Part shown: piece by piece, positions 9,001 through 12,000 of the stretch
Numbering within the stretch: position 1 is the stretch's first letter
How the letters are laid out: every line of letters starts with the position of its first letter
DNA from: Escherichia coli
Lineage (GTDB): Bacteria; Pseudomonadota; Gammaproteobacteria; Enterobacterales; Enterobacteriaceae
DNA: 64,000 nt
Reading direction: 5' to 3' (one strand)
Assembly: GCF_045037415.1 (NCBI RefSeq)
Contig: NZ_CP173438.1
Program-made: the position numbers

Positions 9001-12000
9001 ATTAGGTATGGGATTTGATAAACCTGATTTAGGTTTCGTCATTCATTATCAGATGCCGGGGTCTATTGTCGGTTACTACCAACAGGTGGGGCGTGCCGGG
9101 CGTGCTATAGATTCCGCAGTTGGCATATTGCTTTGTGGTGGTGAAGACCGCGCTATTCATCAATTCTTCCGTGAAAGCGCCTTTCCTGCGGAGGCGCAAA
9201 TTCATGAAATACTCAACGTACTTAGCGAGAATGACGGTCTTACCCTACGAGGCATTGAACAACGGACGAATCTTCGTTATGGGCAAATAGAAAAAGCACT
9301 GAAATTATTGGTAGCTGAAAATCCATCGCCTGTGGTGTATACCGAGAAATTATGGCGCAGAACTATCGTCAGTTTTTCTCCTGATCATGAACGAATTAAC
9401 CATTTGATGAATCAGAGAAAAAGTGAGTTGGCAGACGTTGAAAGCTATATCACGACCAAGGAGTGCAAAATGCAATTTCTGCGCCGCGCACTCGATGAGC
9501 CAAGTGCCGAACGTTGTGGTAAATGTAGCAGTTGTCTTCAGCATCCGCTGTTGTCGCCCGACATTGATAGCGACTTACTCCATGCGGCAAATTTATTTAT
9601 TAAACACGCTGACCTGCCATTAAATCTCAATAAACAGGTGGCATCTGGGGCTTTTACGCAATACGGATTTAAAGGGAACTTGCCTGCGGGTTTACAAGGA
9701 TCTACGGGGCGAATCCTTTCTCGTTGGGGAGATTCCGGGTGGGGAAAGCAGGTAGCCCAGGAGAAAAAAACGGGGCGCTTCAGTGATGAGCTGGTGGAGG
9801 CATGTGCGGAAATGGTTCGCCAACGCTGGAATCCGCATCCTGAACCCACCTGGGTATGCTGCGTTCCTTCATTAAGGCACCTCGACCTGGTTCCTGATTT
9901 TGCCCGGCGACTGGCGGCGAAACTTGGCTTACCTTTTATTGATGCCATTGAAAAAGTCGTGGACAATCCACCGCAGAAAATGCAGCAAAACCGTTTTCAC
10001 CAGTGTCAAAATCTCGACGGGGCGTTTGTGATTACCCCTCCTTTGATGCCAGGTCCGGCGTTGCTGGTTGATGATATCGTGGATTCTGCATGGACGCTGA
10101 CAGTTCTGACAGCACTGTTACGCCAGGCAGGTTGCCCGACGGTTTATCCTCTTGCCCTTGCTTCTACCTCGGTAAAAAATTGATGAATCTTTCAGCCAAT
10201 GCTCAAGCAACTCTCCTGCTAACCAGCGATTTTTCTCGCGCGGCGGCGAGTGAGTATAAACCTCTTAGTAATAGTGAATGGGGGAAGTTTGCATTATGGC
10301 TGAAGCACCAACGTATCAGTCCCGCCGAGCTTCTGGTGCCGCAACCGCAAGAGAAACTTACAGGCTGGAGCGATCCGCGTATTTCTCAGGAGCGAATTCT
10401 TGGCTTGCTGGCGCGTGGTCATAGTCTGGCGTTGGCTGTAGATAAGTGGCAACGCGCCGGTTTATGGATCTTAACCCGCGGAGATGCCGATTATCCCGTT
10501 CGCTTGAAAAACCGATTGCGAACGGATGCACCTCCCGTTTTATTTGGCTGCGGGAATAAAGCATTACTGCAAGCGGAAGGTATGGCGATTGTTGGCTCGC
10601 GAGATGCTCCGACTGACGATTTGCGCTATACCCAACAACTGGCCGCGAAACTGGCCCAACAGGGGATTTGCGTTATCTCTGGTGGTGCGCGAGGTATTGA
10701 TGAATGTGCAATGGCCTCGGCTCTGGAGGTCGGGGGAACTGCCGTTGGCGTATTAGCTGATAGCTTGTTAAAAACGAGTACGTTAGTGAAATGGCGTGAA
10801 GGGCTTATAGCAGGCAACCTGGTGTTGATTTCGCCGTTTTACCCAGAGGTACGTTTCACCGTCGGCAATGCGATGGCGCGGAATAAATATATTTATTGCC
10901 TTGCTGAAAGCGCAATGGTTGTACGTGCGGGAATGACCGGTGGAACGATAACCGGGGCGATGGAGGCATTAAAACATCAGTGGCTGCCCATGCAGGTTAA
11001 ACCAAATCAGGATATGCAATCAGCCAATTCACGATTAGTAGAAAATGGGGCGTCATGGAGTGCTGAACAGGCTGAGAATGTGACGATCAGACTGCCAGAC
11101 GTTCCTGGGCTGATGTATGACAGAGCACTCCGTAACGCTCAACCAGAACTGTTTTCGCTGCACGAAGATGACGCAAATTACGCAGTAATGCCCGCGCATA
11201 CCCCTGTCGATTTTTATCAACTCTTTGTGGCGGAACTGGCGATCCTTGCAAAGGAATCGATAAGTATTGAAAGGCTGGCGTCTTGTACTGGTTTAACCAT
11301 CGAACAAATTAGTGTGTGGCTGAACCGCGCAGAAGAAGAGGGAAGGGTTATCCGATTGGGCGAAGGTCATTATCAGTTCAGGTAATAAAACAGGTGCCGC
11401 GTCTGGTTGTGTGCAACACCTGTTTGAACCTTACCCCTTCATCCACATTCGAATGCCGTCGAGGAACATCTGAGTTGCCATCATCACCAGAATCAATCCC
11501 ATCAGGCGTTCAAGTGCGTTCACCCCTTTCTCGCCCAGCAGACGTAAAAATAGCGAAGACTGTAGCAGGATGACAAAGGTGCCGCCCCAGGCCAGCAGCA
11601 GAGCAATCACCAGATGTCCCATCTGATTCGGGTACTGGTGAGACAACAACATCAGCGTGGCGAGAATAGTCGGCCCGGCGACTAACGGAATTGCCAACGG
11701 CACGATAAATGGCTCTTCACCTGCCGGAAGCCCGCTGCTATTTCCTGAAGCGCTGGGGAAAATCATCTTAATGGCGATCAGAAACAGAATGATGCCGCCA
11801 GAAATGGAGACGGTTTCTGCCCGCAGGCTAAGAAATGCCAGAATTTTCTCGCCCGCAAACAGGAACACCAGCATCACAAGGAGAGCAATAAGCAACTCTC
11901 GCACCATGATTGCCCGCCGTCTTTTCGGTTCAGTATGTTTCAGTACGGACATGAAAATAGGTAGGTTTCCGAGCGGATCCATAATCAGGATCAATAAAAC

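What the first reader, a model, noticed from the sequence alone, without database searches (positions are those of the whole stretch)
9461..10183. Unusual domain fusion: RecQ zinc-binding region followed by a ComFC/GntX-like PRTase domain
After the helicase core and the C-x17-CGKCSSC zinc-binding motif (9461-9535), the last 110 or so residues (about 9845-10180) carry VCCVPSLRHLDLVPDFARRL... and ALLVDDIVDSAWTLTV. These parallel the native ComFC-like GntX in this window (IISVPLWQRRHWRRGFNQ...; VIVDDVVTTGSTV). With the downstream DprA-like gene, the module recapitulates a ComFA(helicase)-ComFC(PRTase)-DprA triad in two genes, although E. coli is not naturally competent in the classical sense. The third residue of the canonical V-D-D-V-x-T-T-G motif cluster is altered (DSAW in place of TTG), which may mean a non-catalytic, nucleic-acid-binding PRTase fold.
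Basis: partly seen in the sequence, partly recalled or inferred. Interest (0 to 1): 0.75.

Follow-up and report, generated by a model that had tools for sequence, protein, structure and literature searches.

The report
RqlH–RqlI (PsyrTA) toxin–antitoxin defence module
The gene is the already published E. coli RqlH (PsyrT), a RecQ-like helicase that carries a ComF-like phosphoribosyltransferase domain and is paired with its DprA-like antitoxin RqlI (PsyrA), so the fusion is real but not new.

Summary

The fusion is not new. The protein matches the PADLOC PsyrT model end to end (E=0), and the next gene matches PsyrA (1e-202). This helicase plus zinc motif plus ComF-like PRTase architecture was described for M. 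smegmatis RqlH in 2012. The E. coli locus was dissected in 2015: the PRTase domain is needed for toxicity, D663A abolishes it, and RqlI binds that domain. The ComFA/ComFC/DprA parallel was drawn in 2015 and 2017, and PsyrTA was listed as anti-phage in 2022.

The loop DDxVDS[R/G/A]WT is strongly conserved across the family and resembles the loop of active enzymes. The whole locus is in 1641 of 5426 complete E. coli genomes. Verdict: already known, low interest. The biochemical activity of the domain remains unsolved.

The parts
8087..10183 (+). rqlH / psyrT coding sequence (698 aa from the second ATG; 699 aa if started at 8084). Toxin component: a RecQ-like helicase fused to a ComF-like PRTase.
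   Evidence: ORF. PADLOC PsyrT E=0, 1065.7 bits, profile positions 4-687 of 689. NCBIfam recQ_fam 251.2 bits against a cut-off of 219.8. RefSeq CDS WP_001296481.1. K50/D149/D664 here correspond to K49/D148/D663 of the published protein, an offset of 1.
8141..9154 (+). SF2 RecQ-type helicase core (residues about 20-357), with motif I GWGKS at residue 47 and motif II DEAH at residue 149.
   Evidence: Pfam DEAD 24-195 (5e-25) and Helicase_C 240-341 (4e-13). E. coli RecQ core 1oyw E 4e-53 by sequence. Foldseek of the full-length model against 1oyw gives TM 0.70 normalised to the target.
9191..9361 (+). RqlH-specific linker between the helicase and the zinc motif (residues about 370-426). It is predicted as three helices plus a beta-hairpin, which looks like a winged helix.
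   Evidence: Secondary structure of the full-length AF2 model (pLDDT 92.2): H370-381, H388-394, H399-411, E417-420, E423-426. Only a faint Pfam MarR_2 hit at 374-411, E 0.19. The winged-helix assignment is an inference. Ordonez 2012 called this a 90-aa spacer.
9413..9538 (+). RecQ-type zinc-binding region (residues 444-485), with cysteines C461, C478, C481 and C484 (C-x16-C-x2-C-x2-C).
   Evidence: Pfam RecQ_Zn_bind E 0.0014. Cysteine positions from the translation. The homologous tetracysteine domain is described in M. smegmatis RqlH.
9569..10180 (+). ComF-like module with a type I PRTase fold (residues about 496-699). This is the toxicity determinant and the RqlI-binding domain in the published work.
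10061..10099 (+). PRPP-loop motif LLVDDIVDSAWTL (residues 660-672). The family consensus is DDxVDS[R/G/A]WT.
   Evidence: Alignment A2 has D163 and S168 invariant, and D164, W170 and T171 at 90% or more. Motif counts in 143 representatives. Aligned with LIDDIIDTAGT of B. subtilis PRPP synthetase. D663A and DIVD663EVME abolish toxicity.
10183..11385 (+). rqlI / psyrA coding sequence (400 aa from ATG 10183, which shares a base with the rqlH stop codon in TGATG). RefSeq calls a 431-aa version from ATG 10090. DprA-like/SLOG antitoxin.
   Evidence: PADLOC PsyrA 1.4e-202, profile positions 1-397 of 398. Pfam DNA_processg_A 89-292 at 2e-50, SLOG cluster4 at 2e-10. Junction sequence. The 2015 paper uses RqlI residues 1-400.
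7947..11430 (.). 3,484-bp accessory segment that fills the gntU-yhgN spacer. E. coli K-12 has a 56-bp spacer here. No flanking direct or terminal inverted repeats were found.
   Evidence: K-12 annotation and alignment. Repeat search. 1641 of 5426 complete E. coli genomes cover at least 80% of the query.
7958..7985 (+). Perfect 13-bp inverted repeat followed by a T-rich tail just after gntU. It is terminator-like and lies upstream of rqlH.
40847..41530 (-). gntX, the native ComFC-like protein.
   Evidence: ORF. RefSeq 'DNA utilization protein GntX'. Alignments.

Best explanation
This is the rqlH-rqlI operon, also called psyrT-psyrA. It is a two-gene toxin-antitoxin-type anti-phage defence module inserted between gntU and yhgN in about 30% of complete E. 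coli genomes.

Shown here:
- RqlH is a RecQ-family SF2 helicase core, followed by an RqlH-specific linker, a RecQ-type Cys4 zinc motif and a C-terminal ComF-like type I PRTase-fold module with a conserved PRPP loop.
- RqlI is a DprA/SLOG-fold protein whose start codon overlaps the rqlH stop codon.
- Distant homologues keep the same gene pair.

Shown by others:
- The M. smegmatis orthologue is a 3'-5' DNA helicase, and its ComF-like domain is dispensable for unwinding.
- In E. coli F11, RqlH without RqlI causes SOS induction, filamentation and mutagenesis.
- That toxicity needs the PRTase domain and its PRPP-loop aspartate, and the PRTase domain alone is not toxic.
- RqlI co-precipitates with RqlH only when the PRTase domain is present.
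- A PsyrTA system is listed among phage-defensive systems.

Inferred mechanism: the helicase places the ComF-like domain on ssDNA or replication intermediates. That domain binds PRPP or a nucleotide and either modifies nucleic acid or nucleobases, or perturbs the PRPP/purine pools as the ShosT PRTase toxin does. The result is DNA damage that aborts phage replication. RqlI normally masks the PRTase domain, and by analogy with ShosA it may be titrated away by phage-derived ssDNA or by RecA.
For: Identity:
- PADLOC PsyrT E=0 end to end and PsyrA 1.4e-202.
- The mutated residues of the 2015 study (K49, D148, D663) fall on GWGKS, DEAH and DDIVD with a constant offset of 1.
- RefSeq annotates a RecQ family helicase plus a DprA gene between gntU and yhgN.

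Domains:
- Pfam and NCBIfam recQ_fam above its cut-off.
- AF2 models with pLDDT 96 and 92.
- Foldseek: RecQ cores for residues 1 to about 490.

Conservation:
- 1657 representatives.
- PRPP loop nearly invariant.
- The downstream DprA/SLOG gene is retained in two homologues whose C-terminal modules are 41-45% identical to this one. One of them sits next to AbiEii.

Literature:
- PMC3378886, PMC4670107, bioRxiv 2022.05.11.491447.
- ShosTA papers PMC11961720 and PMC12961424.
Against: - No PRTase reaction, substrate or product has been demonstrated for RqlH/PsyrT. ShosT also showed no activity on the four common purines.
- In a native E. coli host (NILS69), and when moved into K-12, PsyrTA gave no detectable protection against the phages tested. 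Anti-phage function of this particular E. coli allele is therefore unproven.
- The 2015 study linked the locus to fitness in low oxygen and in animal models rather than to phages.
- The trigger and the way RqlI is released are pure analogy with ShosA.
- The family often has Arg in place of the canonical loop Gly (76 of 143), so ligand geometry may differ from classical PRTases.
Confidence: 0.9

Rival explanations
1. This is the reader's proposal of a competence or DNA-uptake module. The helicase-PRTase fusion plus DprA would recapitulate ComFA-ComFC-DprA and would handle incoming ssDNA for transformation or DNA utilisation.
For: - The partner protein has a DprA domain.
- ComFC binds ssDNA and its PRPP site matters for DNA translocation.
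- The analogy was raised by Russell and Mulvey and by Iyer et al..
Against: - The helicase is RecQ-type and scored no ComFA-type family.
- The module lacks ComFC's own CxxC zinc finger and is not in a competence operon.
- The locus is an accessory insertion present in only about 30% of E. coli genomes, while native gntX is kept in this same window.
- RqlH alone is genotoxic and RqlI neutralises it, which is toxin-antitoxin behaviour.
- Homologues sit beside other defence or toxin-antitoxin genes, and the family is catalogued as anti-phage.
Confidence: 0.04
2. The ComF-like domain could be a non-catalytic ligand sensor or nucleic-acid binder, as in PurR, PyrR and possibly ComFC. It would bind PRPP or a nucleotide to gate the helicase, and the helicase would be the real source of DNA damage.
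For: - No catalysis has ever been shown for RqlH, ComFC or, on common bases, ShosT.
- The PRTase domain alone is not toxic.
- The loop Gly is replaced by Arg or Ala in most family members, and an invariant Trp is added.
Against: - The acidic DD pair, the Ser and the terminal Thr of the PRPP loop are nearly invariant. That is the pattern of ligand-binding and active enzymes.
- Helicase-dead K49A and D148A proteins still lowered viable counts in the 2015 study, while PRPP-loop mutants lost toxicity.
- This rival overlaps the best explanation. It differs only on whether chemistry occurs.
Confidence: 0.25
3. RqlH could be a housekeeping-type alternative RecQ repair helicase. RqlI would act as a recombination mediator, and toxicity would be an overexpression artefact.
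For: - M. smegmatis lacks classical RecQ and has RqlH.
- RqlI has a DprA (RecA-loader) domain.
- The deletion phenotypes concern DNA stress.
Against: - E. coli strains with RqlH also keep RecQ.
- The locus is accessory.
- Deleting rqlI alone in the native strain, without overexpression, is deleterious, and deleting rqlH rescues it.
- A psyrA deletion could not be transformed, possibly because of toxicity.
Confidence: 0.05

Closest known systems
E. coli F11 RqlH-RqlI (Russell & Mulvey 2015, PMC4670107), which is PsyrTA (Sberro 2013; Millman 2022)
   Same: - Same species and the same two-gene order.
- Full-length match to the PsyrT and PsyrA models.
- The same functional residues at the same positions, offset by 1.
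- The same helicase plus PRTase and DprA plus HTH domain layout.
   Different: Nothing of substance was found. RefSeq annotates a longer RqlI start (431 aa against 400 aa).
Mycobacterium smegmatis RqlH (Ordonez, Unciuleac & Shuman 2012, PMC3378886)
   Same: - Same architecture: RecQ-like ATPase, a spacer of about 90 aa, a tetracysteine zinc domain and a ComF-like PRTase module.
- No HRDC domain.
- Similar length (691 aa against 698 aa).
   Different: - It is a different phylum and a diverged sequence.
- Its biochemistry (3'-5' helicase) was measured only for the mycobacterial protein.
ComFC / ComF (H. pylori structure 7P0H) and E. coli GntX
   Same: - Shared Q...N...NL..AF segment and DD-containing PRPP loop.
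- ComFC binds PRPP, NMPs and ssDNA.
   Different: - ComFC is a stand-alone protein of about 190-230 aa with its own CxxC zinc finger and the canonical DDIITTGTT loop.
- Here the module is fused to a RecQ-like helicase and preceded by a RecQ-type C-x16-C-x2-C-x2-C motif.
- Its loop is DDIVDSAWT.
- It acts as a toxin domain.
ShosTA (ShosT PRTase-pyrophosphatase toxin with ShosA DprA-like antitoxin)
   Same: - A PRTase-fold toxin paired with a DprA-like antitoxin.
- RqlI also matches the PADLOC ShosA model (6e-27).
- Both toxins cause DNA damage and filamentation.
   Different: - ShosT has a pyrophosphatase partner domain and no helicase.
- ShosA is reported not to act by typical direct toxin binding and works through ssDNA and RecA, whereas RqlI co-precipitates with RqlH.
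E. coli RecQ
   Same: - Helicase core and zinc motif: 1oyw E 4e-53 and TM 0.70 normalised to the target.
- NCBIfam recQ_fam scores above its cut-off.
   Different: - Fails the RecQ equivalog cut-off (293 against 640 bits).
- No HRDC domain.
- Has an extra linker before the zinc motif.
- Has a ComF-like C-terminus.

Membership tests
RqlH clade of RecQ-like helicases (Ordonez 2012) | RecQ-like SF2 ATPase domain with motifs I and II | tested here: met
   GWGKS at residue 47 and DEAH at residue 149. Pfam DEAD and Helicase_C. recQ_fam 251 bits against a cut-off of 220. RecQ structures are the top hits.
RqlH clade of RecQ-like helicases (Ordonez 2012) | Tetracysteine zinc-binding domain separated from the ATPase by a spacer of about 90 aa | tested here: met
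   RecQ_Zn_bind at 444-485 and cysteines at 461/478/481/484. The spacer runs from about residue 357 to 444.
RqlH clade of RecQ-like helicases (Ordonez 2012) | No HRDC domain; a ComF-like PRTase module at the C-terminus | tested here: met
   [not shown]
RqlH clade of RecQ-like helicases (Ordonez 2012) | DNA-dependent ATPase with 3'-5' helicase activity | not testable with these tools
   Measured only for the M. smegmatis protein.
PsyrTA / RqlHI toxin-antitoxin defence system | PsyrT-type protein matching the family model over its full length | tested here: met
   PADLOC PDLC03928: E=0, 1065.7 bits, residues 3-698 on profile positions 4-687 of 689.
PsyrTA / RqlHI toxin-antitoxin defence system | Adjacent co-directional PsyrA (DprA-like) gene | tested here: met
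   PADLOC PsyrA 1.4e-202. DNA_processg_A 2e-50. The ATG overlaps the rqlH stop codon. The pair is conserved in distant homologues.
PsyrTA / RqlHI toxin-antitoxin defence system | Toxin neutralised by antitoxin; toxicity depends on the PRTase domain | not testable with these tools
   Published for the E. coli F11 orthologue. A psyrA deletion was not transformable.
PsyrTA / RqlHI toxin-antitoxin defence system | Protection against phage | not testable with these tools
   Listed among phage-defensive systems by Millman 2022. An E. coli NILS69 PsyrTA gave no detectable protection against the phages tested.
Type I phosphoribosyltransferase (PRT) fold family | PRT core fold (central parallel beta-sheet flanked by helices) | tested here: met
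   [not shown]
Type I phosphoribosyltransferase (PRT) fold family | PRPP loop: hydrophobic strand, two acidic residues, then a (S/T)-G-x-T type turn | tested here: met
   LLVDDIVDSAWT. DD, S and T are conserved in more than 93% of 143 representatives. The Gly position is R, G or A, and an extra invariant W is present. It aligns with DDIIDTAGT of PRPP synthetase. This is a variant of the canonical loop, not a loss of it.
Type I phosphoribosyltransferase (PRT) fold family | PRPP-dependent transferase catalysis | not testable with these tools
   Never demonstrated for RqlH. PRPP-loop mutants lose toxicity.
ComFC competence proteins | Stand-alone protein of about 190-250 aa with an N-terminal CxxC...CxxC zinc finger followed by the PRT domain | tested here: not met
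   The module is the C-terminus of a 698-aa helicase. The upstream cysteines have RecQ-type spacing, C-x16-C-x2-C-x2-C. It is related to ComFC but is not a ComFC.
Canonical RecQ (TIGR01389 / PRK11057 equivalogs) | Score above the equivalog cut-off, and an HRDC domain | tested here: not met
   293 bits against a cut-off of 640, and 223 against 1015. No HRDC domain.
DpdF (Dpd 7-deazaguanine DNA modification system helicase) | Score above the NCBIfam DpdF equivalog cut-off | tested here: not met
   147 bits against a cut-off of 550. The PADLOC DpdF models hit only the shared helicase core, or appear to be RqlH-type C-terminal fragments.

The most novel reading that the evidence does not exclude
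The identity is settled, but what the ComF-like domain does is not. The most novel reading still open is that the RecQ-like motor delivers an enzymatically active ComF-type PRTase to ssDNA, and that this domain uses PRPP to modify DNA bases or DNA ends, for example by phosphoribosylation. RqlI (DprA/SLOG) would then recognise or reverse the lesion. The family-specific loop DDxVDS[R/G]WT, with its invariant Trp, would reflect a nucleic-acid acceptor rather than a free base. If that is true it would also suggest what ComFC does in natural transformation. This idea was already floated in 2015, so even confirmation would credit earlier authors.
Probability: 0.15. Interest if true: 0.7.

Novelty: already known. 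Interest (0 to 1): 0.15.

Why it matters
For a genome scan this is a correct rediscovery, not a discovery. The locus should be labelled rqlHI/psyrTA, a catalogued defence and toxin-antitoxin module, rather than flagged as a new fusion.

Some interest remains because the chemistry of the ComF-like PRTase domain is still unknown, and the same holds for ComFC itself and for the acceptor of ShosT. No RqlH/PsyrT structure turned up in the 2026 PDB copy; the only sequence matches are helicase cores. The models made here give usable construct boundaries: pLDDT 92-96, ComF as the closest fold, and a probable winged helix in the RqlH-specific linker. The conserved DDxVDS[R/G/A]WT loop gives clear mutagenesis targets.

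Tried and rejected
- Canonical RecQ with RQC/HRDC at the C-terminus: rejected. There is no HRDC hit, the score is below the equivalog cut-offs, and the C-terminal fold is PRTase.
- DpdF membership, suggested by many PADLOC DpdF hits: rejected. NCBIfam DpdF scores 147 bits against a cut-off of 550, and PsyrT scores far higher.
- Stand-alone versions of the C-terminal domain: the short hits of 200-260 aa in the representative search mostly begin inside or just before the zinc-motif region. They look like truncated gene calls, not a separate family.
- Mobile-element signatures at the insertion borders: no flanking direct repeats, terminal inverted repeats or integrase were found. The only feature is a hairpin after gntU.
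- Sigma-70 promoter scan upstream of rqlH: nothing on the + strand.
- Single-sequence search of the C-terminal domain against PDB sequences gave only marginal hits (E 0.26). A family profile was needed.
- A later mechanistic paper on PsyrTA itself: none found in the library.
- PADLOC scan of the neighbouring accessory genes at 23077-26072: no hits.
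Full report
**Setting.** The window is E. coli chromosome: ggt, yhhXW, gntR-gntK-gntU, two extra genes, then yhgN, asd, the glg operon, glpD and so on. In K-12 the gntU-yhgN spacer is 56 bp. Here it is 3,484 bp (7947-11430) and holds two co-directional genes. No direct or terminal inverted repeats flank the segment. The only feature is a perfect 13-bp hairpin with a T-rich tail after gntU. A 3.8-kb query across the locus matched 5424 of 5426 complete E. coli genomes through its flanks. 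Only 1641 genomes cover at least 80% of it, so the pair is accessory and present in roughly 30% of genomes. In a few genomes an IS1 or IS1397 transposase is annotated under the match, and the two-piece alignments suggest it interrupts the locus.

**Checking the observation.** ORF 8084-10183 (+) translates to 699 aa. RefSeq starts it at the second ATG, 8087.
- Pfam finds DEAD (24-195), Helicase_C (240-341), RecQ_Zn_bind (444-485, E 0.0014) and a weak Pribosyltran hit (606-684, E 0.0087). It finds no HRDC domain.
- VCCVPS begins at residue 591 and DDIVD at residue 663.
- GntX, with the quoted IISVPLW and VIVDDVVTTG strings, is at 40847-41530 (-).

**Is the C-terminus really a ComFC-like PRTase?** Yes, on five independent lines of evidence.
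- BLASTP of residues 501-699 against the window's GntX gives 26% identity over 76 aa (E 2e-5). The match covers the Q..N...NL..AF segment and the DD loop.
- An exhaustive HMMER search with residues 501-699 found 1657 cluster representatives at E<=1e-3. A 38-sequence alignment of these (A2) aligned to GntX with hhalign probability 94.5% over 108 columns. Against PDB sequences it hit PRPP synthetases (E 2.4e-6), HPRTs and PurF.
- AlphaFold2 on that alignment gave a very confident model: pLDDT 96.3, pTM 0.92.
- The Foldseek top 50 PDB hits are all PRTase-fold proteins.

A full-length model (pLDDT 92.2) superposes on RecQ catalytic cores over its first 490 residues or so (E. coli RecQ 1oyw, TM 0.70 normalised to the target). 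It predicts three helices plus a hairpin (370-426) in the stretch between the helicase and the zinc motif. That pattern looks like a winged helix, but the assignment is an inference.

**What it is.**
- The protein matches the PADLOC PsyrT model end to end (E=0, 1065.7 bits). The next ORF, 400 aa from ATG 10183, matches PsyrA end to end (1.4e-202).
- That ATG shares a base with the rqlH stop codon (TGATG). This suggests translational coupling, which is an inference.
- The second protein has a DprA domain (DNA_processg_A, 2e-50) of the SLOG type.
- PsyrTA is the same system as RqlHI.
- Ordonez, Unciuleac and Shuman (2012) described M. smegmatis RqlH as a RecQ-like ATPase plus a tetracysteine zinc domain plus a C-terminal ComF-like PRTase module with no HRDC. 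They noted that non-K-12 E. coli strains encode it.
- Russell and Mulvey (2015) studied the E. coli F11 locus. RqlH without RqlI causes SOS induction, filamentation and mutagenesis.
- Deleting residues 509-690, or mutating D663A or DIVD663 to EVME, abolishes the toxicity. The PRTase domain alone is not toxic.
- RqlI co-precipitates with RqlH only if the PRTase domain is present.
- Their K49, D148 and D663 fall exactly on GWGKS, DEAH and DDIVD of this ORF with a constant offset of one residue, which is the second ATG. I take this to be the same protein.
- Two distant homologues, whose C-terminal modules are 41-45% identical to this one, keep a downstream DprA/SLOG gene. One of them sits next to an AbiEii gene.

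The helicase-PRTase-DprA parallel with ComFA-ComFC-DprA is reasonable, but it is not new. It is discussed in the 2015 paper and by Iyer et al. in 2017. The published phenotypes are those of a toxin-antitoxin and defence module, not of DNA uptake.

The suggestion that DSAW in place of TTG marks a non-catalytic domain does not hold up.
- Across 143 representatives the loop is D(141) D(139) x V D(115) S(138) [R76/G47/A8] W(137) T(134). It is under strong constraint.
- Active B. subtilis PRPP synthetase has DDIIDTAGT at the aligned position.
- From my own memory, unverified here, E. coli Hpt has EDIIDSGNT.
- T671 aligns by motif with ComFC T165, whose substitution abolishes nucleotide binding.
- The loop aspartate is needed for toxicity.

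What is family-specific is the invariant Trp and the frequent Arg at the Gly position. Whether the domain catalyses a reaction is unknown. ComFC's activity is also unresolved, and ShosT binds PRPP but showed no activity on the four common purines.

**How it most likely works.**
- Shown: the domain anatomy, the conserved gene pair, the conserved PRPP loop and the accessory distribution.
- Shown by others: helicase activity of the mycobacterial orthologue, PRTase-dependent genotoxicity, the RqlI-PRTase interaction, and the listing of PsyrTA among anti-phage systems.
- Inferred: the helicase brings the ComF-like domain to ssDNA or replication intermediates. The domain binds PRPP or a nucleotide and either modifies nucleic acid or bases, or disturbs the PRPP/purine pools as ShosT does. 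The resulting DNA damage stops phage replication. RqlI masks the domain until an infection cue, perhaps ssDNA or RecA by analogy with ShosA, removes it.
- Caveat: an E. coli PsyrTA gave no detectable protection in its native host NILS69 or in K-12 against the phages tested.

**Comparison and novelty.** The locus is a member of the RqlH clade and of PsyrTA/RqlHI; every feature testable here was met. It is related to ComFC but is not one, because it is not stand-alone and lacks ComFC's own CxxC finger. It is RecQ-family but not RecQ: it scores below the equivalog cut-offs and has no HRDC. It is not DpdF (147 bits against 550). No RqlH/PsyrT structure turned up in the PDB copy; sequence hits cover only the helicase core. 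I found no mechanistic PsyrTA paper later than the ShosTA work.

**Verdict.** The finding is already known and of low interest for discovery. The unresolved chemistry of the ComF-like domain is the only open question.

Noticed in passing
window 23077-26072 (+): Three ORFs (505, 255 and 201 aa) sit between glgP and glpD in a low-GC stretch (0.448). RefSeq names them a PstS-family phosphate-binding protein plus two hypothetical proteins. From memory, K-12 has no such genes here; that was not checked. None matches a PADLOC model.
   Followed up: partly
window about 29779-30565: Only short pseudogene remnants of rtcR and rtcA are annotated between glpR and malT. No rtcB is annotated, so the RNA repair operon rtcBA appears to be deleted in this strain.
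   Followed up: no
window about 42367-42741 (-): A truncated Rpn-family recombination-promoting nuclease pseudogene lies next to bioH.
   Followed up: no
window 2810-2874 (+): The RyhB small RNA (Rfam RF00057, 83 bits) is the only Rfam match in the window at gathering threshold.
   Followed up: no
window 10090-10183: RefSeq annotates the DprA-like gene from ATG 10090 (431 aa, overlapping rqlH by 94 nt). The PsyrA model and the 2015 paper fit a 400-aa product from ATG 10183, which overlaps the rqlH stop codon (TGATG). The longer start is probably an over-extension.
   Followed up: partly
window 9191-9361 (RqlH residues 370-426): The 'RqlH-specific linker' between the helicase and the zinc motif is predicted with high confidence as three helices plus a beta-hairpin, which looks like a winged helix. 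It lies before the zinc cysteines, whereas in RecQ the winged helix follows them. Only a faint MarR_2 Pfam hit supports the assignment.
   Followed up: partly
PADLOC models PDLC02869 and PDLC02866 (hits to RqlH residues 626-699 and 463-695): Two short PADLOC models labelled DpdF (74 and 255 positions) match the ComF-like C-terminus of RqlH very strongly (8e-54 and 3e-18). They may have been built from RqlH/PsyrT-type fragments, which could cause mislabelling.
   Followed up: no
E. coli genomes NZ_OZ040267.1, NZ_OZ039848.1 and NZ_AP046539.1 (hits H1-H3): In these genomes the match to the locus is in two pieces with an IS1 or IS1397 transposase annotated under it. In two of them the helicase is annotated as two separate genes, which suggests rqlH was inactivated by the insertion.
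   Followed up: no
L004 1189-3040 (-), beside a distant rqlH-rqlI pair: An AbiEii-domain gene and a partner ORF lie immediately upstream of a metagenomic RqlH-RqlI homologue pair. This is consistent with a defence-island context.
   Followed up: no
window 11900-13600 compared with NZ_AP018784.2: Somewhere between yhgN and asd, the window's coordinates shift by +1 relative to the otherwise identical strain SK1144 record, so there is a single-base indel in an intergenic stretch.
   Followed up: no
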